Source: Halanaerobacter jeridensis | GTDB taxonomy: Bacteria; Bacillota; Halanaerobiia; Halobacteroidales; Halobacteroidaceae | DNA: 64,000 bases | NCBI RefSeq assembly: GCF_016908315.1 | Contig: NZ_JAFBDQ010000005.1 | Location: forward strand, 1 to 64,000 | Reading direction: 5' to 3' | In this document: positions 2,523 to 56,552 of the stretch, piece after piece | Numbering within the stretch: position 1 is the stretch's first letter | Layout: each line of letters opens with the position of its first letter | Made by a program: the position numbers and the translations under genes | The notes under the pieces: model-generated | Databases searched by the model: none | The model's input: the letters and a program-made list of their open reading frames with translations, nothing else | What the model was told of the DNA's origin: nothing

Positions 2523-2657
2523 TCATATAACGTCCCGCAGCTTCGCGACGTCCCATCAATGCTCTATAACCTAATCTAATGCAACCTTAATTTCATAAGT
2601 CAGTCCTAACCTCATTTATACTCTACAATTGGATGTCGCTAAGCTGCTGTTATGCGA
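2523..2657 (-). repeat. attC-like cassette recombination site, copy 2
   Basis: TCATATAAC-GTCCC-GCAGCTT-C-GCGACGTCC ... GGATGTCGC-T-AAGCTGC-T-GTTATGCGA. The heptads are complementary. The terminal pair has covaried (..GTCC/GGAT.. here versus ..GTCT/AGAT.. in the other copies). The 5' flank complements GTTATATGA of copy 1. Confidence 0.8.
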
Positions 2658-2679
2658 AGTGCTAAATCTCAGATAACAA

Positions 2680-4140: not shown

Positions 4141-4316
4141 TTTATGTCACACCTCACTATTTATAAATAAACAATCAATCAAGCGATCAATTAATTTTTT
4201 TAGTTTTTCAATACCGACAATTCAATAGTTCATAGAGCTGGAAAAAAATACAATGTCACACTTTCCTTTTCAAACTAAAAAATTGTCACTAAAATATGTA
4301 ACTAAGATTTAGCATT

Positions 4317-4453
4317 TCGCATAACGTCCCTGGGCTTCGCGACGTCTAGGCACTGCTCCTATACTTTTGCCTATGCTCCTAAATTTCATAAGTCAGTGCT
4401 GCAACCCTGCCATATCCTCTGTGCCTAGATGTCGCTAAGCCCATGTTATCTGA
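4317..4453 (-). repeat. attC-like cassette recombination site, copy 3
   Basis: TCGCATAAC-GTCCC-TGGGCTT-C-GCGACGTCT-AGGCAC ... GTGCCT-AGATGTCGC-T-AAGCCCA-T-GTTATCTGA. An extra 6-bp stem (AGGCAC/GTGCCT) is present. The flank TAGCATTTCGCATAAC complements GTTATGCGAAGTGCTA of copy 2. Confidence 0.8.
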
Positions 4454-4489
4454 CGTAGCCATTGTCGAATAAAAACTACTGTACTTACA

Positions 4490-7997: not shown

Positions 7998-8128
7998 TTT
8001 TTTTGCCCCCGTTTCAATTTAAGTAATTAATCTTCTAATTTAAATAAAATTAGTTCATCGATTAAAATCAAGAAAAATTATATTTGATCTTAATCTCTTT
8101 GGATAACCTCTTTTTCAAAATGGCTATG

Positions 8129-8263
8129 TCAGATAACGTCCCTGGGGTTCGCGACGTCTCGGGACTGCTCCTCTATTCTGCTCATCATCCTAAATTTCAT
8201 AAGTCAGTGCTACAACCCTGCCCTATCCTCTTACCTAGATGTCGCTAAGCTCATGTTATGTGA
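8129..8263 (-). repeat. attC-like cassette recombination site, copy 4
   Basis: TCAGATAAC-GTCCC-TGGGGTT-C-GCGACGTCT ... AGATGTCGC-T-AAGCTCA-T-GTTATGTGA. The heptads pair with one G:T and one mismatch. The flank AATGGCTATGTCAGATAAC complements GTTATCTGACGTAGCCATT of copy 3. Confidence 0.8.
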
Positions 8264-8749
8264 TGTAGTTAGCAAAAGATATTTTCTATATTCTCCAAAA
8301 CCTATGCAAACACTTCTAAACTATGCTAAACCTATTCTACTCACCTTTGCTAATGAGACTTTTCTTTCACAATCCTTCCCAAACAGCTCTAATTAGAGTT
8401 CTCTTACAACTATAATTCTATAACTTTAAAAAAAGAATAAACCGAAAGAGATAGAGTAGATATCCTTCCCTAAAATGGTTTCTAAATGTGTTTTTAACTT
8501 CACTATACTCAAAAATTTGCCTCTAAACCTGAGCATTTTCGCCGAAAAATTATACCAACGCCCAAAATATAGCCTAGGCATCGCTACTGGACTAACTTCA
8601 AACAAATATACTTCCACATAACTTATATAAGCCTTAACTCTATATTTCTTTTCCTTAATATAAAAAAGCATCTACTCTATCTCTTGACCGGTTATAGAAT
8701 TCTGCAGCATTTTCTATTCTAATACAAACAAACCCATTTGCTAACTATG

Positions 8750-8886
8750 TCACATAACGTCCCTGGGCTTCGCGACGTCTCGGGACTGCTCCTATACTTT
8801 TGCTTATCCTCATAAATTTCATAAGTCAGTGCTGCAACCCTGCCCTATCCTCTATACCTAGATGTCGCTAAGCCCATGTTATCCGA
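8750..8886 (-). repeat. attC-like cassette recombination site, copy 5
   Basis: TCACATAAC-GTCCC-TGGGCTT-C-GCGACGTCT ... AGATGTCGC-T-AAGCCCA-T-GTTATCCGA. The flank TTTGCTAACTATGTCACATAAC complements GTTATGTGATGTAGTTAGCAAA of copy 4. Confidence 0.8.
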
Positions 8887-8923
8887 CGCCCGGCTTCTAT
8901 AAAAAATATATCCCTCTTTTAAC

Positions 8924-9781
8924 CTAGTAACTTTTTAATATATCTAAATATTCACTTTTTGTTTCATTATCATATAAACCCTTCGCTTCATTTAGAGTTT
9001 CTATAGCCCAGTCTACATATTTTTGATTTACTTTTTTACTATTTTCTATTTTTTCTATAAATCTTTCTATTTTATTTCTCAATTTATTGTTTACTGATTT
9101 TAATTTTTCTTCCAATTGTTCATTCTCTTCTGCTAGTTCTTCATTCTCTTCTGCTAGTTCTTCATTCTCTTGCTCTAATTGTTCTTCAATTTCTTTTAAC
9201 ATTTCTAATCTTTGTTTTAACCGTTGTGTTTCCTTCTTTTCTTGTTGTGTTTCCTTCTTTTCTTGTTGTGTTTCCTTCTTTTCTTGTTGTGTTTCCTTCT
9301 TTTCTTGTTGTAATTTCTTATCAGACTGCTCAACTGCCTCATCTAATGCACTTAACTCTTCATCACTCCATTCAGTACTTTCCTTACTACTCTCACCTTC
9401 ATTTAATATTTCTTTTATTTTGCTTTTAACCCAACTAGGAGCTTCTATAAAATCTTTTCTCAATCTTTTATTCTCTGATTTCAACAACTCTTTATAAGCT
9501 AAATCTAAATTAGAAAGATTATCTTTAGTCAATATATCTATTTCAATTAAATTTTCTGCGAATTCTCCTGGTTTCATAAATTTATCTTCTAATTTGCTTA
9601 TTTCTTCTAATTCGTCATATAATTTAGTTTTAGCCTTATTAGTACTTAATTCAGCTTGTTTTAGTTTCTCTTCTGTTAAACCATAATCCTCATTTAACTT
9701 AGTAGTTACATCATCTGCTAAAACATTCACTGTCAAAACCAATAGCAATACAATCAATAATAAAACACTTAACTTCTTCAT
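8924..9781 (-). CDS. secreted coiled-coil protein with tandem heptapeptide repeats (285 aa)
   Basis: N-terminal signal-like segment MKKLSVLLLIVLLLVLTVNVLA. It carries a QQEKKET x4 repeat and an ELAEENE repeat, is strongly charged and looks helical. It is the sole ORF of the cassette between sites 5 and 6. Confidence 0.6.
   Translation of the reverse strand: MKKLSVLLLIVLLLVLTVNVLADDVTTKLNEDYGLTEEKLKQAELSTNKAKTKLYDELEEISKLEDKFMKPGEFAENLIEIDILTKDNLSNLDLAYKELLKSENKRLRKDFIEAPSWVKSKIKEILNEGESSKESTEWSDEELSALDEAVEQSDKKLQQEKKETQQEKKETQQEKKETQQEKKETQRLKQRLEMLKEIEEQLEQENEELAEENEELAEENEQLEEKLKSVNNKLRNKIERFIEKIENSKKVNQKYVDWAIETLNEAKGLYDNETKSEYLDILKSY
9224..9307 (-). repeat. 4 x 21-bp perfect tandem repeat inside the coiled-coil gene
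   Basis: The unit ttgtgtttccttcttttcttg is repeated four times on the plus strand and encodes QQEKKET x4. A second 21-bp unit (ttcattctcttctgctagttc) is repeated just over twice at about 9121-9170. Confidence 0.85.
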
Positions 9782-9860
9782 AATCTGCCTCCCCTAAATT
9801 ATGGTTTTTAATGTTTTTAATATGTATTTCTTTCAATAAAAATAGCAGCTAAGCCGGGTT

Positions 9861-9994
9861 TCGGATAACGTCCCTAGGGTTCGCGACGTCTAGCTAAACC
9901 CTCCTATAACTTGTCCATCCTCTAAAACTCAATATTCAATTCCTAACCTTCCCTAACCTCTCAACCTAGATGTCGCTAACCCTATGTTAGACGA
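9861..9994 (-). repeat. attC-like cassette recombination site, copy 6 (divergent loop subfamily)
   Basis: TCGGATAAC-GTCCC-TAGGGTT-C-GCGACGTCT ... AGATGTCGC-T-AACCCTA-T-GTTAGACGA. The heptads are complementary. The loop differs from copies 1-5. The flank AAGCCGGGTTTCGGATAAC complements GTTATCCGACGCCCGGCTT of copy 5. Confidence 0.8.
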
Positions 9995-10014
9995 TGTTTG
10001 CTTGATAAAAATCA

Positions 10015-11046
10015 TTACCTTCTCTCTATTTCTTCAATTATTAATTTTGGGAATTTATATTCAATTACAGCAATAGCTTCTTTTAAAAGCGGATAAGAAA
10101 AATCTCCTTTTGAACTAGTAATCATTGACATCCAATGAGTTGGATAATATCGAACTAACATACCAATCGCATATGAAATAATGTAAATAGTTAATAAAGA
10201 AGAAAAATTTAAATTATCAGCTAAAGGGGCAACAGCAAATATATTATTTTTTCTATCATTTTTTACAAACGGAACTCTATTATAAAACTCTTCATTAGAA
10301 GAATGAATTATTCTAAAAGATATATTTTCTAAATTACCTGCAAAATTATGTTTTTCCTTCTTTCTCGTTTTAATGTCTTTTGGTAAACCAAAGTCATCTC
10401 TAACTAATTCCTTATTAGGTAACCCAATACTAGTTTCTAACACTGCAATATCTGTTTGTTCAGATAAACAAAAAACAATTGCATTATAACATTTAGAATA
10501 ATCATCAAAAGTATTCTCATATATATTTTGTAATTCCGGAATCCTCGCTAATATTTCTTTAATAGTAATTAAATTATTACTATCTTCTTTACCCCCATAT
10601 TGTTTTATTTTAGTTCGATTTGGATATGGAGCTATATATATTGAACTTCTCTCAATATTTTCTGTAACCTCCCATAACTTAGAAAATGTGCCAGAAGTAA
10701 TCTCAACATTCAAATTAGGTACTTCTTCTATTCCATCTGAAAGTTTTTGGGTCCAATTTTTCACTCTTAATCCATGAGATGGTTTAAGGCTAGTTACTCT
10801 TGCAAAAGGATCTAAAAATAAAATTAATCCACGACAAAATGCAACTACTCCGTAATAAAACAATAGAGGAGATACAACATTATCAGCCTGTTTTGCACTG
10901 GAAAAATATTCTCTTCCTTGAGTAATATGAGAAACTATTTCCTCTGCTTTTCCAGCCGAAAGTTCTCTATCATGCTTCTCTTCATAAAATTTTGAAACTA
11001 AATCTTTGCTTTCATACAAAGATATCTTAGACCAAACATTTTTCAT
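10015..11046 (-). CDS. YaaC-like protein (343 aa), second gene of a two-gene cassette
   Basis: The N-terminal region ...EIVSHITQGREYFSSAKQADNVVSPLLFYYGVVAFCRGLILFLDP... resembles my recollection of the B. subtilis YaaC family. The family assignment was not verified by any search. Confidence 0.45.
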   Translation of the reverse strand: MKNVWSKISLYESKDLVSKFYEEKHDRELSAGKAEEIVSHITQGREYFSSAKQADNVVSPLLFYYGVVAFCRGLILFLDPFARVTSLKPSHGLRVKNWTQKLSDGIEEVPNLNVEITSGTFSKLWEVTENIERSSIYIAPYPNRTKIKQYGGKEDSNNLITIKEILARIPELQNIYENTFDDYSKCYNAIVFCLSEQTDIAVLETSIGLPNKELVRDDFGLPKDIKTRKKEKHNFAGNLENISFRIIHSSNEEFYNRVPFVKNDRKNNIFAVAPLADNLNFSSLLTIYIISYAIGMLVRYYPTHWMSMITSSKGDFSYPLLKEAIAVIEYKFPKLIIEEIERR

Positions 11047-11069
11047 TATTTACCTCCCTTTTTCCCTTG

Positions 11070-11528
11070 TCACAAATTTACTTTTTCTAACTGTGTAGGC
11101 CAAGCTCCTTGACCATTTCCTCCTTTAAAATAAACTCTATAATTTTTTCCTATAGAAGAAACAACATGTTTAGTAATATACTTCTTTTCTTCACCATCAA
11201 TTTCAACTTTACTTTTCTTTTTAACTTTGTCTCCAGGCTTTAAATTTAATTCTTCAATTGCTTGCTTATTATTTTCTTTTAATTTATCCTCAATTTTTGC
11301 TGAGGCAACTCTCAACGAATTGTTTTTAAGATCTAAACCCAATTCTTCTCCAAATTCAATTTGTTTTTCAGTAGACTCATTAAATTCCATATTAGGATCA
11401 ATTGCTGGTTCAACTGCATCATAAATCCTTGCACTTGCTACATTACGAGTATCATTAGAAATATCAACTTCTAATTTAATTGCTATATTCTTTTGAAATG
11501 GTGTTGGTTTTTTATGAACATCATTCAC
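11070..11528 (-). CDS. hypothetical protein with an internal duplicated ~32-aa motif (152 aa), first gene of the two-gene cassette
   Basis: The two repeats are TPFQKNIAIKLEVDISNDTRNVASARIYDAV and STEKQIEFGEELGLDLKNNSLRVASAKIEDKL. The lysine-rich C-terminal segment ends in ...YRVYFKGGNGQGAWPTQLEKV. It lies 23 nt upstream of the YaaC-like gene. Confidence 0.5.
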   Translation of the reverse strand: MNDVHKKPTPFQKNIAIKLEVDISNDTRNVASARIYDAVEPAIDPNMEFNESTEKQIEFGEELGLDLKNNSLRVASAKIEDKLKENNKQAIEELNLKPGDKVKKKSKVEIDGEEKKYITKHVVSSIGKNYRVYFKGGNGQGAWPTQLEKVNL

Positions 11529-11573
11529 AAATAAATTTCCTCCTTTAAAAAATATAATATAACAAAAGCAAAT

Positions 11574-11709
11574 GTCGTCTAACGTCCCTGGGGTTCGCGA
11601 CGTCTAGCTCAACCCTCTTATAACTTGTCCTTCCTATAAAACTTTCATATGTAATCTCTACCTTCACCCATCCTCCTAGCCTAGATGTCGCTAACCCCAT
11701 GTTATGTGA
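11574..11709 (-). repeat. attC-like cassette recombination site, copy 7 (divergent loop subfamily)
   Basis: TCGTCTAAC-GTCCC-TGGGGTT-C-GCGACGTCT ... AGATGTCGC-T-AACCCCA-T-GTTATGTGA. Its CTAAC core matches the GTTAG of copy 6 rather than its own GTTAT. Confidence 0.8.
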
Positions 11710-11845
11710 TGCTTCTGATCGGTTAATAAAAAATAATCCCCAATAAAATTAAAACCCTCATTAAAATTTAGCATAATAATAAATACTCATATCAAACAAC
11801 TATAATTCGAATTATTTTATACTAATATTATATTCAACCTTACTT

Positions 11846-29434: not shown

Positions 29435-29732
29435 TAAAAATGTTCGTCTACCCATTTTTATCTTTTTTTAGTTTTTTCTTTTTAAATTTTGAATTTACTC
29501 TTTACTTTTTATTTTTTAATTGTCACTCTTCACTAATTACAACTGGGCACTACCAGTTTCTCATTCTTTAAGAATACTTTGCCCAGGAGCAACTATTTTT
29601 ATTTGACCGCCAGTAGAACACATTAATTTAGAACCTTCCAATAAAGCAGACTGTTGACCAACTTTCACGTTTTCTTTCACCTTAGTCCATGGTGAGGGAA
29701 GACTAGGCGTACAAGAGCTTTCAGTAATTTTG

Positions 29733-29925
29733 CAATGACCTACTTGAAGGGCAAGCCCGTTCAGGTTTCTTCATTCATTGAAACGAGCCTAATCTAAACC
29801 TACCGAAATGGTAAGACAAATCAGGTCTTACAGTTTCTAGACCAGCCAAAAGACTGGTTGAGGCAACTTACAATGCCTCCAGAAGCTTGAATTCCCGTCA
29901 GCCCGACGGTATGTATTATATTTTA
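29733..29925 (-). ncRNA. predicted TnpB omega/right-end RNA scaffold (orphan copy)
   Basis: Near-identity to the segment between the tnpB stop and the right end of the full IS. This is by analogy to the known origin of TnpB guide RNAs in the IS right end. Expression was not assessed. Confidence 0.45.
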
Positions 29926-30087
29926 ACCCTTTTCTAATTTTATAGAGCAGCTTGGTTGTCGCTTACTCTTTATCGTAGGGTTTCATTTTTTTGACTTATA
30001 TTTAGTATATCTTATTTTAGAAATAATATTCAATTATTTCTAAAATGTTGTCATTTAACCCAAAGGCAAGCCCATTAGGGTTTTCTG
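29733..30087 (-). mobile_element. non-autonomous IS200/IS605-derived miniature element (PATE/MITE-like, 355 bp)
   Basis: Bases 29733 to about 29925 are about 95% identical by eye to the right end of the full IS at 44814 to about 45005. The left-end hairpin CCCAAAGGCAAGCCCATTAGGG resembles CCCAAGGGCAAGCCCGTTGGG of the full copy. Both copies are inserted 3' of TTGT on the minus strand. Confidence 0.8.
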
Positions 30088-30906
30088 ACAACTAATGCAA
30101 TAACATTTGCAATTAAATTACCACAGACTTTAGAATTATGTCCTGATACTACTTGTAATTGACTGGGGGTACTTCCAGCGCTACATTTCAGCCTTGCACC
30201 AGAACAGACATACAACTGACCTCCTCCACTAGAACTTCCTTGACTATTACCGCCGCTATTATTTTTGCTCGTCTGACTATAACTTGCTCTATTATTACTG
30301 TTCCTATTAGTTGCTGCACCTTGTTTTCCTTTCTCTTTCTCACTACTGCTACCAACACTAGCAGCAACTTGACCTTGAGCTTTACTTTGTTCTTTGTTTT
30401 GCTGCTTTTTATTTTCTTCTTTTTCTTCCGGAAAGACTATCTTATCGCCTCGGTAAATCCATAAAAAATTATTTTTTATTCGTTTTTCTTCTTTTAAGTA
30501 TTGATTTTCTTTCACTCCTAGTACTGCACCTTTAGTATCTTCTTCTTCCGCACTTTGCTCAAATATCTTTCCTTGCTCTAAATAATAAGGAGCAGGTTTA
30601 TCTAGCCACAAACCATAATCCCCTTCTTTAAAATCATCAATTAAAGCCCAATTTAATTCATTATTCTGATCTAAATATAACATCACTAAGTTACCATCTT
30701 CTTTACGGTATTTATTATCATATTGATCTTTATAATCTATATCTTCTTCCTCTGTTTCTTTAATCCCCGGGCCAATCAAATTGCCATTAATCTTAATTTT
30801 AGTTTTTCTTTTTTCTAAATCAATATTAATTTCACGCTCATCTTTAGCTAGTTTAGTCTTTTGATATTCATTCTTTCCTGTCATTTTACCCCACCCTCAA
30901 ATAATT

Positions 30907-33900
30907 TTAAGCATAACAAATTAGTTTATCCCTTTCTTTACGATTGAATTTAGAATTAGCTCCAGCTATTTCATCAATCCTATTAAGCGGTAATTTAATT
31001 CCATAATCACCGTTCCGAAACTTCTTAATCATTATCTTCCACTGCTGATTCGAACCATATTTAATTACTAAATCATACTTGTCGTCATAACAATTTTGGC
31101 TATACTCACAATATAAAGTGGCCGTTTTATATTTCTTGACTTTAACTTCATAAAAAGTCTTTATTCCATAAGTATTACCATCTGAATTAGCTATTCTTTT
31201 CAGCTTAGGTAACTGCTTAAAATTAAGTTCAGCTAAATTATGCAGTTGTCCAAATAATTTTAGTAGGATCTTGCCGCTGCCGTCTGATTCCATAACGACG
31301 CCGTTAAAACTACTTGTTCCTTCATCTTCTCGTTTGTAAGTTGGAGTTGATTCTCCGTTATAAAATATATATTGGTCTGGTGACTGACCTCGGTTATCTT
31401 GAAACTTGAATTTAGCATGGTTCAGACCGTAGTCTCCATTTTCAAAACCATTAATTAATAAGGCATTGTTATAGTCACCAAAATTAATTACTAAATTGCC
31501 CAGCTCTTTTAGATAAGTAAAAGTGATCTTATCACCATTTAAACAGACATTTTTTTGCGTATCCTTTGCAACTTCAGTCTTACTTAATAAACTAGCTGCA
31601 TCCCTATAGTCCTGCTTTCCAAACTTCAGCAGTATCTTTCCACTGCCGTTACTTTCCTCTTCTACAGTATTATTATGCTGCCAAAAACCGCTGCTGCCTG
31701 CAGTAAATTTATATTCACAGTTACTTCTATCCAGTTGGACTACCAAATTCCGACTGCCGTAGAGGACTGTGGCATAATTAACTACTTCATCTTCAAGATC
31801 GTATCTTCTCCTACTACCGTATAACACATCTTCCGGCACGATAAATTCTAAACCAAAGTCACCATATTGATAGTTATCTATTATGACTTTACCGCCGTAC
31901 TTAGAAAAGTACTGTTTGTTATTGCCAAAACTTGCCCCATAACTATAATTAACTTCTACAGTAGACTCTTCAGGAATATAAGCATAATAAAAGCCGAACT
32001 TATCCGTGAATTCATACTTTAATTTATTCTCTATAAGTTCTACTTCATTTTTAAATTCTAAGTCTTGACCTAATAACTTCTGCTCGCCATTCGGTAGAGC
32101 AATTTTCAATCCATCACCACTAATTTTAGAGTTTTCCTGTTGGCGGTGGGCATAAATCTCATAATACTGCAGTTCTCTGATTCCATCATCAACTATCTCC
32201 GCCTCTAAACTACCTTCTACTCTATGTACACGCGGGAGATAGATGCCATAATCTCCATTCACAAACTCATCTATTCTTGTCCTATTTAACTTTTCTGTCG
32301 TAAATTCAGTCACACCATCTTTAGTTGCGCTTGGCCCGTAATAAGCAATCAGTACGTTTTCTTCTGGTTGACTAAAATTAGGCTGTAAGTGATATTCTAC
32401 TTTAAAATCTTGCTCTGCAAATACTTCTTCATATATTTCAGTGCCATAATACTTATCTTCATCTTCTTTTAGATTATTTAAATACTCCTCTTGAATCTCA
32501 ATTTTCTTTCCTAACTGTACTTCATTAATTATGATATCAGTCTGGGGATCACTGTCTTGATTATAAGTATCTATTTGGCCCATGCCCATCACAAACTCAA
32601 ACGGATCTCTTTGAGACTTACTATTCTCTTCTAGTTTACTGCTGCCAAATAAATTATGCCTATTTGGTGGAGCCGTAATGTTCATTTTTATCTGTTGGGA
32701 AGAATTAGTAATTGGAGTGCTGTGGTAGATTGTTTCTTCCTCCTGCGTTACCCCTGCTGTCCCTAAGAATAACTGCTTGATGTTTCCAGATGATGACCAG
32801 CGCCATAATTTTTTCCTGTCTTGTTCATCTATTTTCTTTAGTTGCGCTAAAATAGCAGTATCTAAGCTATACTCACTATTATTTTCATCAATTACTATTG
32901 TATATTTACATTCATTATAAATAGTTATTAATATTTTTAGCAAAGAAGACTCCTCTATTGTTATCCATTCTTCATTTAAATCCTGGTTAATATTATTTTT
33001 AGTAACTTCATCTAACTTCCGACCTTGCTGTTTAACACTATTAAATAAAGTTGCCTTAGATAATTTAAATAAATTATCTTGAAAAGTTTCTTCAGTCTTC
33101 TTTCTACTAGCTGATTTATATTTTAAATATAACTCTTCTAATTCTTTTAAATCATTACCATCATCAGTTATTTCTAAAATTATATATTTTATTATTGAAC
33201 GCAAATAATCATAACTCAAACTATCTGTTAACTCTCCGATTTCTGCTGTCCCGCCTTTATAATTTTCTGGTTCTCCTATGTTACCTTTCTTTTCTAATAA
33301 TATATAAGGGTAAAATATATTAACACCATGCTGCTTAGCTAATTCTAATTCTTCTCCTCCTATTTCACCTGCCCCATCTTTAAGAGAACCTTCTTCTATT
33401 AAATCCGAATATTTTATTTCGCTATTATCTTTAAATTCTTTATCTACTAAATAGCAGTTACCTACATGCTTAAAAATTGTTCCCGTAATATCATAAGAAT
33501 TAGCATAATTTTGGAGATTTGACTTATCCAATTTTTTATATTTTTCAGCAAAACGTAATTTTCTATTTGCAAGTTCAAATGCTATCTCTTCTAATTCCTC
33601 AGCCTCTTCAATCGGCATAATTAAAGATAAACCAGATTCTTTTATCAAACTATCCTCTATTAATGCTTGTTTATAATCTTTCTGCAGTGCTAATAACTGC
33701 TCAGTAAATTGATCAGTATCACTAATATCTTCAAATTGTTGATAACCCTCACTAAGCAACTCATCTTTTAAGTTGTCAATCTTACCTTGGAGTAAACTTT
33801 TTTTATTTAAATCATTATTCAACTCCATCTGATAAGTAAATTGATTATAATCTCCTGCTTCCATTCTCTCTTCAATTGCTTTGATTTCTTGCTTGAACTT

Positions 33901-35025
33901 TTTTACTTTATCTGCTGCTTCATCAATCATATCTAATCTATGTTTTACTAATTCTCTAATAAATTTAATCCTATCTATTTCCGGAATTCCTGCCTCATTC
34001 TTTTTTACAAATTTAGAATTTATACTAGTTCCTTGAATAATATCTGACTTTTGAATTTCCTGATAGACCCTCTTATCAAGTTCATCTCTTAAGTCTCTTT
34101 CCCCTATTAAAACTTTATTAACTAAAAAGAGCAAAGCATCCTTATAGCCTAAAAACTCATTACCATAGAAATTCTTAAAATGTTTAATTCCAATTCCATT
34201 CCACGTCTTACAATAAACATGATGACCATTCCCTTGAGCCATAACTGCTGCATACTGAGCTAATCCTCCAGCTAAGGAATGTCCAGTGAAAGTGAAAGAG
34301 TAATTCTTATATTCCGAATGATCTTTTAAAATAAGTTTATAAAAATTTTCTGCCTTATCAAATTGCTCACTAGGAATACCAGCAGCAATCAAAGAATTAG
34401 TCATTGTATGATCTCTAGTTTCATTTGTCCCCCGATAAGCAATGATTATTTCTTTATCACCTTCATTTACAAAAGCTGCTGCATAAAATCCATCGCCTGC
34501 ACCTAAATCTCCTTCCAAGAACTTATCTATTTTACTATAAACTAAATCTTCTAATTGATTGACCAACGCCCAATTAGTCAAATTAAAAGAAATTGCCGCT
34601 TTATTTAATTTTGCTAGCACAGGTAACAGAGGTACTTGTTTTATAACTAATGATAATACATCCGGGTCAGTTCCTGCATCGATCATAGGACCTGCTTGAC
34701 CCATTACAAAATTCATAATTACAGATTTTATTTTATAAAATAAATTATTTGGCTCTTCTTTTCTTTCTAAATTATTTTCTCCATCTTTCATTAAAAATTT
34801 CCAATTACTTAATTGATCATAGTTAGTATAATTAACTTCCAATCTATTCTTTCTATATTTGGGATCATCTTTAAATCTATTTTCCGCTGAATTAAAAAAT
34901 ATTTCTTCTATAGTAGAATTTTCATCTCCCCCATCCGCTTTTTTACCATTATAAAAATCTTCATAAACCATATCACTAAAAATCAAACTTAAATAATCAT
35001 TTGCTTTTGGCTTTTTTCCACTCAT
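30907..35025 (-). CDS. large class-3 lipase-domain protein with C-terminal GDYG repeat modules (1372 aa); toxin-like
   Basis: Alpha/beta-hydrolase serine motif FTFTGHSLAGGLAQYAAV, preceded by IIIAYRGTNETRD. No signal peptide. The repeated modules end in FVNGDYGIYL, YQYGDFGLEF, FENGDYGLNH and FRNGDYGIKL. The same module (FKEGDYGLWL) is in the downstream DUF4280 protein. Confidence 0.7.
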   Translation of the reverse strand: MSGKKPKANDYLSLIFSDMVYEDFYNGKKADGGDENSTIEEIFFNSAENRFKDDPKYRKNRLEVNYTNYDQLSNWKFLMKDGENNLERKEEPNNLFYKIKSVIMNFVMGQAGPMIDAGTDPDVLSLVIKQVPLLPVLAKLNKAAISFNLTNWALVNQLEDLVYSKIDKFLEGDLGAGDGFYAAAFVNEGDKEIIIAYRGTNETRDHTMTNSLIAAGIPSEQFDKAENFYKLILKDHSEYKNYSFTFTGHSLAGGLAQYAAVMAQGNGHHVYCKTWNGIGIKHFKNFYGNEFLGYKDALLFLVNKVLIGERDLRDELDKRVYQEIQKSDIIQGTSINSKFVKKNEAGIPEIDRIKFIRELVKHRLDMIDEAADKVKKFKQEIKAIEERMEAGDYNQFTYQMELNNDLNKKSLLQGKIDNLKDELLSEGYQQFEDISDTDQFTEQLLALQKDYKQALIEDSLIKESGLSLIMPIEEAEELEEIAFELANRKLRFAEKYKKLDKSNLQNYANSYDITGTIFKHVGNCYLVDKEFKDNSEIKYSDLIEEGSLKDGAGEIGGEELELAKQHGVNIFYPYILLEKKGNIGEPENYKGGTAEIGELTDSLSYDYLRSIIKYIILEITDDGNDLKELEELYLKYKSASRKKTEETFQDNLFKLSKATLFNSVKQQGRKLDEVTKNNINQDLNEEWITIEESSLLKILITIYNECKYTIVIDENNSEYSLDTAILAQLKKIDEQDRKKLWRWSSSGNIKQLFLGTAGVTQEEETIYHSTPITNSSQQIKMNITAPPNRHNLFGSSKLEENSKSQRDPFEFVMGMGQIDTYNQDSDPQTDIIINEVQLGKKIEIQEEYLNNLKEDEDKYYGTEIYEEVFAEQDFKVEYHLQPNFSQPEENVLIAYYGPSATKDGVTEFTTEKLNRTRIDEFVNGDYGIYLPRVHRVEGSLEAEIVDDGIRELQYYEIYAHRQQENSKISGDGLKIALPNGEQKLLGQDLEFKNEVELIENKLKYEFTDKFGFYYAYIPEESTVEVNYSYGASFGNNKQYFSKYGGKVIIDNYQYGDFGLEFIVPEDVLYGSRRRYDLEDEVVNYATVLYGSRNLVVQLDRSNCEYKFTAGSSGFWQHNNTVEEESNGSGKILLKFGKQDYRDAASLLSKTEVAKDTQKNVCLNGDKITFTYLKELGNLVINFGDYNNALLINGFENGDYGLNHAKFKFQDNRGQSPDQYIFYNGESTPTYKREDEGTSSFNGVVMESDGSGKILLKLFGQLHNLAELNFKQLPKLKRIANSDGNTYGIKTFYEVKVKKYKTATLYCEYSQNCYDDKYDLVIKYGSNQQWKIMIKKFRNGDYGIKLPLNRIDEIAGANSKFNRKERDKLICYA

Positions 35026-43263: not shown

Positions 43264-43493
43264 CTTTCTTCCCCCGCATCTTGGGCCAAATCTCTAAAAG
43301 CAGCTAAAGTTTCCTGGGCTGCAGATTGATTTAACTTTTGAATCGCACATCCCGAATGAAGCAGCACATAGTCTCCTACCTCTACTTCCGAAATCAAAGT
43401 AATATTGACTGTCTTTCTAACTCCTTTTACTGCTCCTACAGCCTCTGTATCATTAACAATTTCTATAACTTTAACCGGCACAGCAATACACAT
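43260..43493 (-). CDS. hypC: hydrogenase maturation protein HypC
   Basis: 77 aa beginning MCIAVPVKV. It overlaps hypD by 4 nt. Confidence 0.85.
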   Translation of the reverse strand: MCIAVPVKVIEIVNDTEAVGAVKGVRKTVNITLISEVEVGDYVLLHSGCAIQKLNQSAAQETLAAFRDLAQDAGEER

Positions 43494-44813
43494 TACAAAT
43501 GACCCCTCTCTTGATAATTAGCTACTGCTAATTGTCCTACTGCTAAGCCCTCATCAGTACAAGGAATCTTATGAGGTAGATGAACTTTAAATCCCCCAGC
43601 TGTTAACTTGCGATAAACCTCAATCAATAAGATCTGATTCTGCCATACCCCTCCACTTAATACTACATGATCTAATTTGAATTGTAGTCGCAATATCTCA
43701 CATAACCTAACACTAAAATTAATCACTGTATTATGAAATTTACGAGCAATCATACCTGCATCTACTCCCGCTCTTAAATCAGCAGCAATTTCTTTTATCA
43801 AAGTGGTAATCAAAATCTGATACTGACCTGCTCTCTTGCTGATTTGATAATTATAACTATCATTATTATTAACAGTTTGAGCTGCAGTTTCTAACTTAAG
43901 AGCAGCCTGCCCTTGATAACTCCTTTTTAAACACAATCCTAATAGAGCTGCTACTGCCGCAAATAATCGTCCAAGACTAGAAGTAAGAGGACAATTAATA
44001 TCTTGTTCTAACATTTGCTCTACTGCAGCTAATTTATCAGGCTTTATTTGAGACATATTTTGAGTAAAGATTTCAGTTACTTCTATTCCCGCCTGGTGGA
44101 GATAACTAACTGCCATCCGCCATGGTTCCTTAACTGCTTGATCTCCGCCGGGTTGAGCTACATACTGCAAATGACCTACACGCATAAAATCACTATAATC
44201 ACAAATAAAAAACTCCCCCCCACAAGTGACCATCAGTTCCTAAACCTACTCCATCAAAAGCAATTCCAATCACCGGTTGTTGGAGTTGATGTTCAACCAT
44301 AGAACTGACTAAATGGGCATGATGATGCTGCACTGCTATCTTCTCACCTGGTAATTGCTGAGCATAATGAGTAGAATAATAACCCTCATGTAAATCATGA
44401 ACAATTAACTCCGGTTCTATATCATACAACTGCTCTAAATGTTCAATATTATCTTGATAACGTTGGTAAGTCTCTAAGTTACTTAGACTGCCTGTGTACT
44501 GACTTACAAAAGCAAATTCTCCTTTGCTGAGACAGAATGTATTCTTTAAATCTCCTCCACAGGCCAAAGTAGCTACCTCTGAGCTTACTTTAATCACTTG
44601 TGGTGCAAAACCACGGCCGTGTCTAATTACTCGTTCATGACCAAGGGCTACATTGGTTACTGCATCATCTACCGGCACCTCTATCTTGCGATTATGTAAT
44701 AAACAGTAGTCAGCTACTGCAGTTAATTCTTCTCCTGCTCTTTGATTAGTATATTCTAACGGTAGTCCACTTAAATTTCCACTTGTCGCTACTAATACAT
44801 CAAGTCCATGGGC
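43493..44813 (-). pseudogene. hypF: hypF, C-terminal (Kae1-like) part, itself frameshifted
   Basis: ..AHGLDVLVATSGNLSGLPLEYTNQRAGEELTAVADYCLLHNRKIEVPVDDAVT.. then ..GLGTDGHLWGG, with a frame change in the C7 run at 44215-44221 (G7 on minus), then EFFICDYSDFMRVGHLQYVAQPGGDQAVKEPWRMAVSYL... The first codons of the ORF-track ORF 44199-44855 derive from the IS right end. Confidence 0.8.
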
Positions 44814-45047
44814 CAATGACCTACCTGAAGGGCAAGCCCGTTCAGGTTTCTTCATTCATTGAAACGAGCCTAATCTGAACCTACCGTAAATGGCAAGACA
44901 AATCAGGTCTTACAGTTTCTAGACCAGCCAAAAGACTGGTTGAGGCAACTTACAACGCCTCCAGAAGCTTGATTTCCCGTCAGCCCGACGGTAAATATGT
45001 TTTTTATGAGCTTCACGAAAAGTCCGTTAGGACTTGTAGGATGTGGA
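44814..45047 (-). ncRNA. predicted TnpB omega/right-end RNA region
   Basis: A structured, comparatively GC-rich 234 bp lies between the tnpB stop and the IS right terminus, and is conserved in the orphan copy. By analogy to characterised TnpB systems the guide would be read from the flank beginning at 44813. The boundaries are not determined. Confidence 0.45.
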
Positions 45048-46181
45048 CTAACCTGCTAACAGTTTCTTTCCTTCTTGGAGGATATTCAAACTTGCGTTAA
45101 GGTCACGATCATGTTCAGCACCACATTCACAGGTCCAGTTTCTTACAGATAGATCTTTAACATTTGGATTTTTAGTTCCACATTCGTTGCAAGTTTGAGA
45201 ACTTGCGAAAAATCTATCTACCTTTTGAATGATACAATTATACCAGTCACCTTTATATTCTAGCATATCTGTAAATTTGCCCCAAGATACATCTGTTATA
45301 TGTTTGCCAAGTTTGCTGTTTTTGACCATACCTTCAATGTTTAAGTTTTCAAGACAGATAAATTGATTTTCTTTAACTAGTCTTGTACTTAATTTATGGA
45401 GGAAATCAGTTCGTACATTTTTGATCTTTTCATGTACTTTAGCAATCTTATGTTTGAGCTTTTGCCAGTTATTAGAACCTTCTTTTTTACGAGCTAATTG
45501 TTTTTGTAATCTGGCTAGTTTATTTTCATATTTAGAAAGATGTTTAGGATTTTCTATCTTTTCGCCCTCTGATGTAATAGCAAAATCTTTGAGACCTAGA
45601 TCAATTCCTATCTGACCATCATTGGAATAATTAACTTCTACAACTTTAATTTTTTCAACATTGATAGAGATATAATACTTTCCTGTTCTTGATTTAGAGA
45701 CTGTAACATTATTTAATTTACCTCCAATATTTTCTTCACTATAATTAGAAAATTTGATCCAAGAAACTTTAGGAAGTTTGATTTTATTTCCTTTGATTTC
45801 TATACTTTCAGTTCCGCTAGATCGTTTAAAATATTCGGTACGATATGATAGTCGAGAACCTTTCTTGCTTTTGAAATTAGGGAATCCTTTATCACCGTTA
45901 AAGAAATCTTGGAAAGCTTTATCTAGATCTCTAATTGATTGCTGCAAAGCTATAGAATCAGCATTTTTAAGCCATGAAGTTTCTTCCTGATTTTTAAGTT
46001 TAGGAAGATCTTTAATATATTGAGTTTTATTTGCATAGCCATTTTGTTTAGCTTTGTCTAAAAAATAATTATATACCCATCGGCTAGACCCTATAGTTTG
46101 GTTGATTATATCTTTTTGCTTTTGATTTGGATATATCCGACATTTATATCCCCGTTCGATAGGAACAAATCGCTTAATCAT
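45048..46181 (-). CDS. tnpB: TnpB (RuvC-like RNA-guided nuclease family, 377 aa)
   Basis: RuvC motifs IGIDLGLKDFA, ICLENLNIEGM and DRDLNASLNI, and the zinc ribbon CNECGTKN...CECGAEHDRD. Confidence 0.9.
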   Translation of the reverse strand: MIKRFVPIERGYKCRIYPNQKQKDIINQTIGSSRWVYNYFLDKAKQNGYANKTQYIKDLPKLKNQEETSWLKNADSIALQQSIRDLDKAFQDFFNGDKGFPNFKSKKGSRLSYRTEYFKRSSGTESIEIKGNKIKLPKVSWIKFSNYSEENIGGKLNNVTVSKSRTGKYYISINVEKIKVVEVNYSNDGQIGIDLGLKDFAITSEGEKIENPKHLSKYENKLARLQKQLARKKEGSNNWQKLKHKIAKVHEKIKNVRTDFLHKLSTRLVKENQFICLENLNIEGMVKNSKLGKHITDVSWGKFTDMLEYKGDWYNCIIQKVDRFFASSQTCNECGTKNPNVKDLSVRNWTCECGAEHDRDLNASLNILQEGKKLLAG

Positions 46182-46197
46182 AATTTGACCTCATTCC

Positions 46198-46602
46198 CTA
46201 TTTAAGGTTTTGATTTTTTATATAATTTCTAATAGTTTCAATATTAGCATTACCTACTGTATCTACAAAATATCCTTTGCTCCACAAAGAACCACAACGA
46301 TCATAAAAAATCTTTAATTTAGGATGTTCCTTGAAAAGTTTAATTGCTGATATGCTTTTAATAGTTCTTACTATATCAGTAGGAGCAACTGTGGGTCTAG
46401 CAGATACAAAAATATGAATGTGATCTGGCATTACTTCTAACTCTAATATTTTATAGTTATATCTGTTACAAATATTAATGATAATATCTTTTAAAGATAA
46501 AGCTATATCGCCATTTAAAACTTCAAATCTGAATTTAGGACACCAAACTAAATGATATTTGATGGAATATTTACAATGGTTAGTAGAATTATATTCATTC
46601 AT
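46198..46602 (-). CDS. tnpA: IS200-type Y1 (HUH) transposase TnpA (134 aa)
   Basis: HUH motif PDHIHIFVS and a C-terminal catalytic-Tyr region (ETIRNYIKNQ). Confidence 0.9.
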   Translation of the reverse strand: MNEYNSTNHCKYSIKYHLVWCPKFRFEVLNGDIALSLKDIIINICNRYNYKILELEVMPDHIHIFVSARPTVAPTDIVRTIKSISAIKLFKEHPKLKIFYDRCGSLWSKGYFVDTVGNANIETIRNYIKNQNLK

Positions 46603-46756
46603 TTAAATCATACTTTTCTTTGATACTTCTACGCATTAAATCTAAATAGCTTAGTGTAGTCTCTTCTTCAACTGAATAAATACTAGCTAAATTTTCTAAT
46701 TCCCGATCAAAAGGAATTGCAATATTAATTTTAGTATTATCTTTACTTGAAGACAT
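46595..46756 (-). CDS. small ORF inside the IS left end, possible ribbon-helix-helix protein (53 aa)
   Basis: MSSSKDNTKINIAIPFDRELENLASIYSVEEETTLSYLDLMRRSIKEKYDLNE. It overlaps the tnpA start by 8 nt. A beta-strand-like INIAIPFD is followed by helical segments. It is below the ORF-track size cut-off. Confidence 0.35.
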   Translation of the reverse strand: MSSSKDNTKINIAIPFDRELENLASIYSVEEETTLSYLDLMRRSIKEKYDLNE

Positions 46757-46854
46757 TTTATTTGCTCCTTTAACACATATTATCCCACAATAGATTATAT
46801 ATTATGTGAATAGTTGTGTTCTTGACCCAAGGGCAAGCCCGTTGGGTTTTTTAC

Positions 46855-47434
46855 ACAAAAACAATAACTGTGGCCCACAATCAGGGCAGGCATTTGGCTG
46901 AGCATGAAAGCGCCTGCTAGTCGGATCTTGATATTCACTAAGGCAATCTTCACACATACTAAAATCAGACATAGTAGTTGACTCCCTGTCATATGGTATA
47001 CTCTCAATAATTGAAAAGCGTGGGCCGCAGTTCGTGCAATTAATAAACGGATATCTATATCTTCTATCATCTCCATCTAATAATTCCTCTTGGCATTGTG
47101 AACATAAAGCTGCATCTGGAGTCACAAAGGTTAACTGTTCATTATCATCTGTACTATCTTTGATTTTAAAATGTTGATAATTCGTAGATTGCAGCTGGTT
47201 GATTATTATCTCTTCTATTTGGGCCAAGGTTGGCGGATTAGATTTAATTTGATTAATCAAATTAGTTACTCCCCGCAGCGAGCCCTGCACATCAATTTCT
47301 ACCCCCTGCTGAGTATTATTAACTTCTCCTTGTACATCATAATGCTGAGCTAAATTATAAACAAAGGGTCTAAAGCCAACTCCTTGTACTATGCCCTTTA
47401 CTATCACAAACTTACGAATTACTTGCTCATTCAT
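46855..47434 (-). pseudogene. hypF: hypF, N-terminal part (acylphosphatase plus zinc fingers)
   Basis: VIVKGIVQGVGFRPFVYNLA (acylphosphatase-like), then CSQC...CTNCGPRFSII...CEDC...CPDCGPQLLF, where the IS begins. The tail of ORF 46802-47434 is IS-derived. Confidence 0.8.
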
Positions 47435-53662: not shown

Positions 53663-53714
53663 AAAAAGACCCCTACTCGCTGAGAAGATAAAGTAATCCC
53701 CAAGCAAGTAGGAG
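53663..53714 (-). terminator. intrinsic terminator after LysM paralogue 1
   Basis: On the minus strand, CCTACTTGCTTGGGGATTACTTTATCTTCTCAGCGAGTAGGGG is followed by TCTTTTTT. Confidence 0.6.
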
Positions 53715-53835
53715 CCATCAATTGCTATATTTAGCAATAGTTAAAGGCGAGCTCCATCGCCTACCATTTAATTTTAGCAGATTAATTATAAGATTGCAAT
53801 CAAAATTTGTAGACTAATTATTTTACTGCCTTTTT

Positions 53836-54990: not shown

Positions 54991-55179
54991 ATAATTCCTG
55001 CTTATAATATAAAATCCTATGCATAATGCATAGACCACAATCATACAAGATTAGATTGTGTTAGCTATAATCCTATGCACAGTTTTTCTTATAAGCAGGA
55101 TTTTCACCACCTTTCTTTTTGTTTGAATTAAAATTTTTACTAAAAGTCAATTTATCTAACCTTTAATCAGGTCATAATC

Positions 55180-56367: not shown

Positions 56368-56552
56368 TTCAATCACCTCTAACTAGTAGTTTATATTATT
56401 ATATGCCTGATAAAATATTTTGGTTATTGCATTGATAGGCAGAAACTGCTAATAGGCTCCCCACTGAGCTGAATAACAACAGTTTAGAAACAATTTGATA
56501 TTATTTCTAAACTGTGATGAAAGTAAAAACTACTTATTTATCATTTTTAAAT

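What the first reader, a model, noticed from the sequence alone, without database searches (positions are those of the whole stretch)
29561..30884. A 355-bp IS605-derived miniature element with an omega-RNA-like scaffold splits a DUF4280 gene; precise excision restores the ORF
Bases 29733-30087 have the left-end and right-end hairpins of the full IS at 44814-46854, and about 190 bp nearly identical to its right end. There are no transposase genes. Deleting exactly 29733-30087 joins ..ANVIALVV to KITESSCTP.. in frame, giving 323 codons with a complete DUF4280 pattern. Both copies sit 3' of TTGT on the minus strand, which defines the likely target or TAM-like motif. The orphan right end would, by analogy with TnpB systems, encode a guide RNA whose guide is read from the flanking DUF4280 sequence.
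Basis: partly seen in the sequence, partly recalled or inferred. Interest (0 to 1): 0.55.

Follow-up and report, generated by a model that had tools for sequence, protein, structure and literature searches.

The report
Decayed gene-less IS605 mini-element with guide-RNA scaffold
A 365-bp gene-less remnant of an IS200/IS605 transposon that keeps the TnpB guide-RNA scaffold sits inside a DUF4280 gene of Halanaerobacter jeridensis; this is a known kind of element, and removing it would not repair the gene.

Summary
The element is real. About 178 bp are 96.6% identical to the right end (RE) of the full arc-like/tnpA/tnpB IS 15 kb away. It has a related left end (LE) and no genes.

1. **Ends.** Six related copies show the LE is always preceded by GTTAT. 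The RE always ends ...GGTCAT, and flanks diverge right after it. The mini-element is therefore 29735-30099 (365 bp) and the full IS is 44816-46863. The target/TAM is (G)TTAT. TTGT lies inside the LE.

2. **Repair.** True excision gives AATGTTAT|TGCAAAATT. That is 40 nt short of intact homologues, so the frame is shifted. It matches only half of Pfam DUF4280.

The omega-RNA idea holds up. A covariance model built on the RE finds the same structure directly after tnpB in about 80 relatives, with strong covariation. Whether the RNA is made or used was not tested.

Gene-less IS200/IS605 derivatives (PATEs) carrying omega RNAs that act in trans are already described. This is a new member of a known kind, probably decaying. 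One loose end remains: both copies sit at host-gene deletions flush with the target motif.

The parts
29735..30099 (-). Miniature IS200/IS605 derivative (PATE-like), 365 bp, no ORF. Made of an LE part, about 75 nt that cannot be aligned, and a complete RE.
   Evidence: Boundaries come from comparison with six other copies or relatives. Similarity to the full IS. No internal ORF.
30100..30104 (-). Transposon-adjacent target motif GTTAT (TTAT core) flanking the LE of the mini-element.
   Evidence: GTTAT precedes the LE in the mini-element, the window's full IS, L128, L219 and the solo LE at 56424. Contigs L124-L126 and L221 start there. Sequence further upstream differs in every copy.
30058..30081 (-). 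LE subterminal hairpin of the mini-element (ACCCTAATGGGCTTGCCTTTGGGT), preceded by the DNA-guide tetranucleotide AAAA.
   Evidence: Core GGGCTTGCC. DNA fold -4.9 kcal/mol, against -8.5 for the full IS LE.
30015..30045 (-). 13-bp perfect palindrome (TTTTAGAAATAAT-TGAAT-ATTATTTCTAAAA) in the LE part. It is also present in the LE of sister IS copies L124, L128 and L219, but deleted from the window's full IS.
   Evidence: Alignment A3; sequences.
29735..29911 (-). Omega-RNA-type scaffold (177 nt). It has a 5' stem-loop, a long-range helix, variable inner stems, a terminal hairpin (29743-29765) and the 8-nt tail UAGGUCAU.
   Evidence: Covariance model R1 scores 96.4 bits, E 5.5e-27. RNA fold -58.7 kcal/mol, z -3.1. 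Covariation.
29735..29738 (-). RE terminal cleavage motif (TEM) TCAT.
   Evidence: Flanks diverge immediately after GGTCAT in six copies. The guide/TEM pairing GAAA/TCAT fits the family-wide rule, which holds in 68 of 73 sequences.
29715..29734 (-). RE-flanking DUF4280 sequence TGCAAAATTACTGAAAGCTC. This is the predicted guide portion of an RNA read through the RE.
   Evidence: Position only (inference). The 16-mer is unique in the window.
30100..30884 (-). 5' part of the disrupted DUF4280 gene (annotated as a 269-aa hypothetical protein of H. jeridensis).
   Evidence: (P0001, 100% identity).
29561..29734 (-). 3' part of the DUF4280 gene (C-terminal half of the domain). After true excision it is out of frame with the 5' part.
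44816..46863 (-). Full IS200/IS605 element (2048 bp). Contains a 53-aa ORF at 46595-46756, tnpA at 46198-46602, tnpB at 45048-46181 and the omega-RNA scaffold at 44816-44993. It is flanked by GTTAT at 46864-46868.
   Evidence: TnpB keeps D194/E278/D360. TnpA keeps HIH and the catalytic-region GYF.
56424..56511 (+). Solo LE-like remnant of the same LE lineage as the mini-element. It is preceded by GGTTAT and has no RE.
   Evidence: blastn 76% identity over 84 nt, E 2e-11. Sequence. No R1 hit there.

Best explanation
This is a non-autonomous, gene-less derivative of an IS200/IS605 (IS605-type) insertion sequence. Such elements are called palindrome-associated transposable elements (PATEs).

**Structure (shown).** It spans window 29735-30099 on the minus strand. 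It lies 3' of the target motif (G)TTAT in a DUF4280 (PAAR-like) gene of Halanaerobacter jeridensis and has the same orientation as the gene. It has an LE with the TnpA-binding hairpin and its AAAA DNA guide. It also has a complete RE ending in TCAT. That RE is the structured RNA scaffold found directly downstream of tnpB throughout this TnpB clade.

**Mechanism (inferred from published TnpB work).**
- An RNA read through the scaffold into the flank (UGCAAAAUUACUGAAAGC...) could load into TnpB made by the intact IS 15 kb away.
- The transcript could start at the host gene's promoter or at an element-internal promoter.
- The complex would cut any allele carrying TTAT followed by that flank, which is the empty donor joint.
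- That would favour retention of the element.
- TnpA from the full copy could in principle excise the mini-element.

**State of the copy (shown).**
- Both hairpins are weakened by point mutations.
- The host gene has lost 40 nt between two TTAT sites next to the LE. Excision would leave a frameshifted pseudogene, not a restored gene.

The locus is most likely a decaying PATE in a dead gene.
For: **Homology**
- 178 nt are 96.6% identical to the full IS RE.
- The hairpin core occurs 4 times, only at element ends.
- The organism follows from a 100% protein match.

**Ends**
- The LE is preceded by GTTAT in five independent contexts, each with a different upstream flank.
- Repeat-collapsed Logan contigs start at GTTAT.
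- The RE ends at GGTCAT. The following bases are TG, TG, TA, TT, AA and AT in six copies.
- Across 73 distinct relatives, the base just 5' of the RE hairpin is complementary to the last RE base in 68. The combinations are GAAT/TCAA 54, GAAC/TCAG 6, GAAA/TCAT 5 and GAAG/TCAC 2.

**Empty site**
- Intact homologues read ..GGTTATTGTAAGATT.. (L001) and ..GGCTATTGTAAAATC.. (L002), so their right flank matches the mini-element's.

**Gene not restorable**
- Alignment.

**RNA scaffold**
- The MAFFT/RNAalifold consensus has 13 of 17 pairs with compensatory changes.
- Model R1 hits immediately 3' of tnpB on the same strand in nearly all of 85 related loci. It hits only the two RE copies in the window.
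- 91% of cells are paired, against 68% in shuffles and 33-51% in slid controls. All 17 pairs show double changes.

**Trans factors**
- Intact TnpA (HUH, Tyr) and TnpB (D194/E278/D360) are present in the window.

**Literature**
- PATEs that encode omega RNAs acting in trans with TnpB: PMC10055086.
- TTAT as a TnpB TAM has a precedent in IsDge10: PMC11589281.
Against: - There is no evidence of transcription, processing or TnpB binding.
- No Rfam family matches.
- Only one mini copy is known. It was absent from the metagenome DNA scan, and the genome-wide census failed. Mobility as a mini-element is therefore unproven.
- Both hairpins fold much more weakly than in the full IS: -4.9 vs -8.5 and -3.4 vs -7.7 kcal/mol, with z about -0.5. 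One substitution puts a C.A mismatch in the terminal stem of the scaffold.
- The alignment used was fitted to the model.
- The TAM (TTAT) and TEM (TCAT) differ at one base only. How TnpB would avoid cutting the occupied site is not shown.
Confidence: 0.75

Rival explanations
1. The element is 355 bp (29733-30087) and inserted 3' of TTGT. Its precise excision rebuilds a complete, functional 322-aa DUF4280 gene, so the insertion is a reversible switch.
For: - Deleting 29733-30087 is in frame.
- TTGT is adjacent to that boundary in both window copies.
- TTGT would also fit a TTNT code predicted from the AAAA LE guide (my inference from the IS608 rule).
Against: - In L128, L219 and the window's full IS, which have different upstream flanks, the 10-12 nt between GTTAT and TTGT are near-identical. 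These bases therefore belong to the element.
- The 'restored' ORF lacks 10 aa and the MDY..N...FG.C motif, and matches only half of PF14107.
- With TTGT boundaries the hypF junction is out of frame (read).
Confidence: 0.03
2. Inert fossil. The element is neither mobilisable nor a source of functional guide RNA. It is a decaying remnant in a dead gene with no present activity.
For: - Both TnpA-binding hairpins are weakened.
- Only a single copy is known.
- The host gene has lost 40 nt as well.
- A further solo LE remnant at 56424-56511 shows this lineage is decaying in the genome.
- hypF next to the full IS is also degraded.
Against: - The scaffold is 96.6% identical to the resident active-looking copy, whereas the LE is only about 77% identical to the LEs of sister IS copies (Logan contigs L124-L126).
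- All three conserved helices remain formable.
- It has the same orientation as the host gene.
- A perfect TATAAT lies 3 nt upstream of the scaffold start (29915-29920, read from the sequence).
Confidence: 0.35
3. The mini-element never transposed as a mini-element. A full-length IS inserted in the DUF4280 gene and later lost arc/tnpA/tnpB by an internal deletion in place.
For: - No second copy of the mini-element was found anywhere.
- About 75 nt between the LE and RE parts cannot be aligned to any copy, as might follow a messy internal deletion.
- Deletions are frequent around these elements here.
Against: - Nothing direct.
- Orphan scaffolds next to or apart from tnpB occur in relatives (L170, L150, L157), and PATEs are common in the family (PMC10055086, PMC7290912).
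- The census of the H. jeridensis genome could not be done.
Confidence: 0.3

Closest known systems
PATE-like, gene-less IS200/IS605 derivatives of Geobacillus stearothermophilus that encode omega RNAs used in trans by TnpB (Meers et al. 2023, PMC10055086)
   Same: - LE and RE of an autonomous IS, with no protein genes.
- The RE carries the omega-RNA scaffold.
- There is a TAM next to the LE and a TEM at the RE end.
- DNA guide and TAM/TEM covary.
- TnpA and TnpB are supplied in trans.
   Different: - Different host order (Halanaerobiales), TnpB clade and scaffold sequence.
- The TAM is (G)TTAT and the TEM is TCAT.
- Here there is a single copy with weakened hairpins, and no expression or activity data.
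PATE-like element of Halanaerobium hydrogeniformans IS605 (PMC7290912)
   Same: - Same bacterial order.
- About 271 nt, made of a short LE with hairpin plus the entire RE.
- Found in a genome with many decayed IS605 copies.
   Different: - That element keeps the last 58 nt of tnpB and has an unrelated LE and RE sequence.
- The paper predates the omega-RNA concept and does not discuss an RNA.
IS608 of Helicobacter pylori (TnpA recognition code: target TTAC, RE end TCAA, DNA guides 5' of the hairpin feet). The code is from my own knowledge of Barabas et al. 2008 and He et al.; the principle is restated in PMC10055086.
   Same: - Hairpins of similar sequence at both ends.
- The cleavage site lies 17-19 nt 5' of the LE hairpin and 8 nt 3' of the RE hairpin.
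- Most relatives of this element literally carry GAAT/TCAA as in IS608. The window copies carry the compensated GAAA/TCAT.
   Different: - Different target (TTAT).
- An extra small ORF lies upstream of tnpA.
- Different TnpB clade.
ISDra2 TnpB/omega RNA (PMC8612924, PMC10097598) and IsDge10 TnpB with TTAT TAM (PMC11589281)
   Same: - The guide RNA is derived from the RE and reads into the flank.
- The TAM equals the transposon target site. A TTAT TAM has a precedent.
   Different: - No detectable sequence similarity of the scaffold was tested or found (Rfam negative).
- In this clade the conserved scaffold starts after the tnpB stop codon rather than inside the ORF.

Membership tests
IS200/IS605 non-autonomous element (PATE) | LE and RE with subterminal hairpins homologous to those of an autonomous family member | tested here: met
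   The RE is 96.6% identical over 178 nt to the full IS. The LE is about 77% identical to sister copies. The shared hairpin core occurs 4 times, only at element ends. The hairpins are weaker than in the full IS.
IS200/IS605 non-autonomous element (PATE) | No transposase or other protein-coding gene | tested here: met
   No ORF of 40 aa or more lies within 29735-30099. Only the read-through tail of the DUF4280 ORF enters it.
IS200/IS605 non-autonomous element (PATE) | Inserted 3' of a specific tetra- or pentanucleotide, without target-site duplication or terminal inverted repeats | tested here: met
   (G)TTAT flanks the LE in all copies. The RE ends in TCAT. The empty site in homologues ends in ..GGTTAT|TGT or ..GGCTAT|TGT before the shared right flank.
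IS200/IS605 non-autonomous element (PATE) | Mobilised in trans (several copies at different sites) | tested here: inconclusive
   Only one copy in the window and none in the metagenome DNA scan. The genome-wide scan was wasted on a pattern that was too short.
TnpB omega RNA | Encoded at or downstream of the 3' end of tnpB on the same strand, ending at the RE boundary | tested here: met
   R1 matches start about 10-55 nt after the tnpB stop, on the + strand, in nearly all related loci. They end at the TEM.
TnpB omega RNA | Conserved secondary structure supported by covariation | tested here: met
   13 of 17 pairs are compensatory on an unfitted MAFFT alignment. On the fitted alignment 17 of 17 are, with 91% paired against 68% in shuffles and 51% or less in slid controls. 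Helices 1 and 2 have no known role in TnpA DNA recognition.
TnpB omega RNA | Match to a curated RNA family | tested here: not met
   Rfam 15 gave no hit at gathering threshold over the whole window. At E up to 10 on 29600-30200 it gave only two weak hits to unrelated families, SL1 RNA and ciliate telomerase RNA, both far below their gathering scores.
TnpB omega RNA | Transcribed, processed, bound by TnpB and guiding TAM-dependent DNA cleavage | not testable with these tools
   No expression or biochemical data are available. Only orientation (same as the host gene) and promoter-like hexamers are seen (TATAAT at 29915-29920).
Intact DUF4280 (PF14107) gene after excision | Full-length match to the domain profile and collinearity with intact homologues | tested here: not met
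The true excision product has no hit. Intact P0003 and P0008 match 1-109. There is a 10-aa gap and loss of near-invariant M, D, N, F, G and C, and a 40-nt deficit at DNA level.

The most novel reading that the evidence does not exclude
Both IS copies in the window sit exactly at a host-gene deletion whose end is flush with the GTTAT target motif.
- In DUF4280, 40 nt are missing between two TTAT sites.
- In hypF, about 390 nt are missing, between CGPQ-L and LL-AHG.
- A relative (L220) has an LE-internal deletion that is also flush with GTTAT.

This could be the footprint of TnpA choosing an alternative TAM at variable distance and rejoining. That would be a transposase-catalysed, TAM-to-TAM adjacent deletion that erodes host genes while keeping the element in place. 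It would also make excision irreversible for the host.
Probability: 0.15. Interest if true: 0.5.

Novelty: new member of a known kind. Interest (0 to 1): 0.2.

Why it matters
- It adds a clean example from Halanaerobiales of a gene-less IS200/IS605 derivative that keeps the whole TnpB guide-RNA scaffold.
- It defines (G)TTAT/TCAT as the likely TAM/TEM pair of this TnpB clade.
- It yields a covariance model of that clade's scaffold, supported by about 80 loci.
- It shows that an in-frame result after a hand-picked excision is weak evidence. End definition needs several copies and an empty site.
- Nothing here changes current understanding of TnpB systems. The only open thread is the repeated deletion flush with the target motif.

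Tried and rejected
- **Genome-wide census.** It returned 120 chance hits in unrelated taxa and none from Halanaerobacter. The pattern was too short, so the census was lost.
- **Metagenome DNA scan.** A 25-mer from the RE found nothing.
- **Rfam.** No family reached its gathering score at either threshold; the E-value scan listed only two weak hits to unrelated families.
- **Exact look-ups of TnpA and TnpB.** These gave only short repeat-collapsed Logan contigs. They were still useful because the contigs start at GTTAT.
- **Native hypF DNA.** A search for a close intact hypF, to read the native DNA at the full IS, failed. The best homologues are about 53% identical, so only the protein-level gap could be measured.
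- **Rejected: TTGT as target.** See the rival explanations.
- **Rejected: GTTAT as part of the element.** The target would then be the bases upstream, which are CACA, TGGA, AAAT, GTTG and TTTG. These are not conserved. In addition, intact DUF4280 homologues carry GGTTAT or GGCTAT exactly at the empty site.
- **Rejected: the 53-aa ORF as a Pfam-recognisable Arc.** No hit at E up to 0.1. It remains a candidate by position only.
Full report
**What is there**

The window comes from Halanaerobacter jeridensis. The truncated 269-aa ORF at 30075-30884 is 100% identical to a hypothetical protein of that species. The TnpA and TnpB of the full IS are WP_204701126.1 and WP_204701125.1 of the same genome, each seen on a single 257-kb contig.

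On the minus strand, the full IS carries three genes: a 53-aa ORF (46595-46756), tnpA (46198-46602; Pfam Y1_Tnp, 1.5e-40) and tnpB (45048-46181; HTH_OrfB_IS605, OrfB_IS605 and Cas12f1-like_TNB). TnpB keeps the RuvC residues D194, E278 and D360. These are invariant in an alignment of 25 relatives. TnpA keeps its HUH motif and its catalytic-tyrosine region.

The mini-element shares 178 nt at 96.6% identity with the RE of this IS (alignment). The nonamer at the hairpin core, GGGCTTGCC, occurs exactly four times in 64 kb, once at each end of the two elements. Chance expectation is 0.05. No ORF lies inside the mini-element. The basic observation is therefore sound and far beyond chance.

**Where the element really ends**

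Closely related copies were recovered through exact and near-exact TnpA/TnpB look-ups. The junctions below are on the top strand, which is the tnpB sense strand.

| Copy | LE junction |
|---|---|
| mini-element | TGCAAAT-GTTAT\|TGCATTAGTTGTCAGAAAACCC |
| window full IS | GGGCCACA-GTTAT\|TGTTTTTGTGTAAAAAACCC |
| L128 | GATTGGA-GTTAT\|TGCTTTTGTGTGGAAAACCC |
| L219 | TTAAGTTG-GTTAT\|TGTTTTTGTGTTAAAAACCC |
| solo LE remnant, window 56424 (+) | ATATTTTG-GTTAT\|TGCATTGATAGGCAG |

Four repeat-collapsed contigs (L124, L125, L126, L221) begin within 3 nt of GTTAT.

Conservation therefore reaches GTTAT.

At the other end every copy reads ...GGTCAT. The next two bases are TG (mini-element), TG (full IS), TA (L212), TT (L219), AA (L220) and AT (L221). 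The RE therefore ends at TCAT. The TG shared by the two window copies is flank.

A family rule supports this. In 73 distinct relatives, the base just 5' of the RE hairpin foot is complementary to the last base of the RE in 68 cases. All four Watson-Crick combinations occur: GAAT/TCAA 54, GAAC/TCAG 6, GAAA/TCAT 5 and GAAG/TCAC 2. This is the DNA-guide/cleavage-site pairing known from IS608 (my knowledge of that literature). Meers et al. describe the same covariation of TAM/TEM with DNA guides (PMC10055086).

The LE guide AAAA fits a TTNT target. The spacing of 17-19 nt between cleavage site and LE hairpin resembles IS608.

The resulting coordinates are:

| Element | Coordinates | Length |
|---|---|---|
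| mini-element | 29735-30099 | 365 bp |
| full IS | 44816-46863 | 2048 bp |

The TAM is (G)TTAT and the TEM is TCAT. TTAT is already known as the TAM of another TnpB, IsDge10 (PMC11589281).

**Does excision restore the gene? No.**

Two intact homologues (79% and 78% identical at protein level) were found, and their DNA was fetched.

- Homologues read GCAAAT-ATTATGGATTAYCAAGCAATGACYAATGTGCA..TTYGGYTATTGT-AARAT.
- The window reads GCAAAT-GTTAT|[element]|TGCAAAATT.

The right flank, and the pentanucleotide just before it (GTTAT in L001, CTAT in L002), match the homologues' site. However, 40 nt upstream of that motif are absent.

True excision gives ..AATGTTATTGCAAAATTACTG... This is frameshifted, and the product has no Pfam hit.

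That happens to bring the deficit to 30 nt, which is in frame. The resulting protein lacks 10 residues. It deviates at six near-invariant columns (M, D, N, F, G, C) exactly at the junction. It matches only positions 61-109 of PF14107 (56.7 bits), whereas intact homologues match 1-109 (88.9 and 95.8 bits).

**hypF and the full IS**

With the corrected ends the hypF junction is in frame (CGPQLL|AHGLDV). However, the YrdC-like domain starts at profile position 110 of 178. About 125-135 residues are missing relative to homologues. A further frameshift lies near 44200-44233. Both host genes are therefore pseudogenes that excision cannot rescue.

**The RNA scaffold**

RE regions downstream of tnpB were taken from 80 metagenomic relatives and from Acetohalobium, Orenia, Halanaerobium and closer metagenome copies. 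They share one architecture:

- a 5' stem-loop (TACCGYNGGGCNRCGG);
- a long-range helix (AGCTTCT...GAAGAA in the window; AGCCCCT...GGGGAA in Acetohalobium; AGCTTGT...ACAAGAA in many relatives);
- variable inner stems;
- the terminal hairpin;
- an 8-nt tail.

An unfitted MAFFT alignment of 14 sequences gave an RNAalifold consensus in which 13 of 17 pairs show compensatory changes.

A covariance model built from that alignment matched immediately 3' of tnpB, on the tnpB strand, in nearly every related locus. In the window it matched only the two RE copies, at 97.0 and 96.4 bits.

On the 73 distinct matches:

- 91% of cells pair, against 68% in column shuffles and 33-51% when partners are slid;
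- all 17 pairs show double changes;
- helices 1 and 2 are 99% paired.

That alignment is fitted to the model, which favours it, but the margins are large and the unfitted result agrees.

Helices 1 and 2 lie outside anything TnpA is known to need. G-U pairs occur on this strand. This is what an omega RNA looks like.

The mini-element retains the whole scaffold, with five substitutions and one loop indel relative to the full IS. One substitution creates a C.A mismatch in the terminal stem. As RNA it folds at -58.7 kcal/mol, z -3.1. No Rfam family matches.

**How it most likely works**

Shown:
- anatomy, ends, target motif and scaffold conservation;
- intact TnpA and TnpB nearby;
- same orientation as the host gene.

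Inferred from the published TnpB mechanism (PMC8612924, PMC10055086):
- An RNA through the scaffold into the flank would carry the guide UGCAAAAUUACUGAAAGC.
- It would load into TnpB made by the full IS.
- It would direct cleavage of TTAT-flanked empty sites, biasing retention of the element.
- Transcription could come from DUF4280 read-through or from element-internal promoter-like hexamers. A perfect TATAAT lies 3 nt before the scaffold (29915-29920).

Against current activity:
- Both DNA hairpins are markedly weaker than in the full IS.
- Only one copy is known.
- A solo LE of the same lineage at 56424-56511 shows decay.

I put about 0.75 on the identification and the corrected anatomy. I put roughly 0.4 on the RNA still being functional.

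**Comparison with what is known**

Gene-less IS200/IS605 derivatives (PATEs) are well known. Meers et al. state that they often encode omega RNAs that must be used in trans by TnpB from other elements. A PATE-like element has been described in another member of Halanaerobiales. The TAM/TEM/DNA-guide logic is that of IS608.

The finding is therefore a new member of a known kind. Two of its specific claims (TTGT as target, and restoration of the gene) are wrong.

**Unexplained residue**

Both elements in the window lie exactly at host-gene deletions whose end is flush with GTTAT.

- In DUF4280 the missing 40 nt lie between two TTAT sites of the intact gene.
- In hypF the homologues have ..LL.. 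just before the right-flank equivalent, compatible with a second TTATTG. No close DNA was available to test this.
- L220 has an LE-internal deletion that also abuts GTTAT.

Meers et al. report flexible spacing and alternative boundary choice by TnpA. A TnpA-mediated TAM-to-TAM deletion is therefore conceivable. Recombination between two nearby insertions, or slippage between GTTAT repeats, would also explain it. I rate the TnpA-mediated reading at about 0.15.

**Dead ends**

- The single genome-contig scan was wasted on a 15-mer that hit by chance.
- The metagenome DNA scan found nothing.
- Rfam was negative.
- No close hypF was found.

Noticed in passing
window 56424-56511 (+): A solo LE-like remnant, 76% identical to the mini-element's LE and preceded by GGTTAT. 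It has a degenerate hairpin and no RE. It lies between two paralogous ORFs of about 400 aa.
   Followed up: partly
window 43493-47434 (-): hypF is a pseudogene. About 125-135 aa (most of the YrdC-like domain) are missing exactly at the full IS. A further frameshift lies near 44200-44233.
   Followed up: partly
window 46595-46756 (-): A 53-aa ORF upstream of tnpA, overlapping its start. It is conserved in sister copies (55-69 aa in L124, L219). By position it is a candidate Arc-like repressor of IS605 elements (bioRxiv 10.64898/2026.09.24.754181). It has no Pfam hit.
   Followed up: partly
window 30015-30045 (-); L124, L128, L219 LE: A 13-bp perfect palindrome in the LE of the mini-element and of sister IS copies. 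It is absent from the window's full IS, which has a 28-nt deletion there. It may be a promoter or operator region.
   Followed up: no
window 53702-53770 (-): Fluoride riboswitch (Rfam RF01734, 48.7 bits, E 1.9e-10).
   Followed up: no
window 1499-11714: A family of 5-6 dispersed repeats of about 70-140 nt (ATAACGTCCCTGGGNTTCGCGACGTCT...GATGTCGCTAA...). A 21-nt tandem repeat lies at 9202-9327.
   Followed up: no
window 53836-57755 (-): Three tandem paralogous ORFs of about 400 aa with internal repeats (repeat families D1 and D2).
   Followed up: no
window 30907-35025 (-): A 1372-aa protein with a weak Lipase_3 match lies directly upstream of the DUF4280 (PAAR-like) gene. This could be an effector plus spike-tip pair. 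In relative L001 a 765-aa ORF with no Pfam match occupies the equivalent position directly upstream of the DUF4280 gene, and a phospholipase-like gene and another tnpB lie further upstream.
   Followed up: no
L170 1645-1761; L150 1888-2002; L157 1620-1738: Extra scaffold copies not attached to the tnpB that brought the locus in. These may be orphan omega-RNA or PATE-like units in distant relatives.
   Followed up: no
L220 about 2340-2360: An IS copy whose LE lacks its first 75 nt or so (hairpin included). GTTAT directly abuts internal LE sequence.
   Followed up: no
window 45000-45045 (-); L213, L219: A conserved small hairpin AAGTCCTAAYGGACTT followed by TTTTC lies between the tnpB stop and the scaffold start. 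It looks like a terminator and is absent from the mini-element.
   Followed up: no
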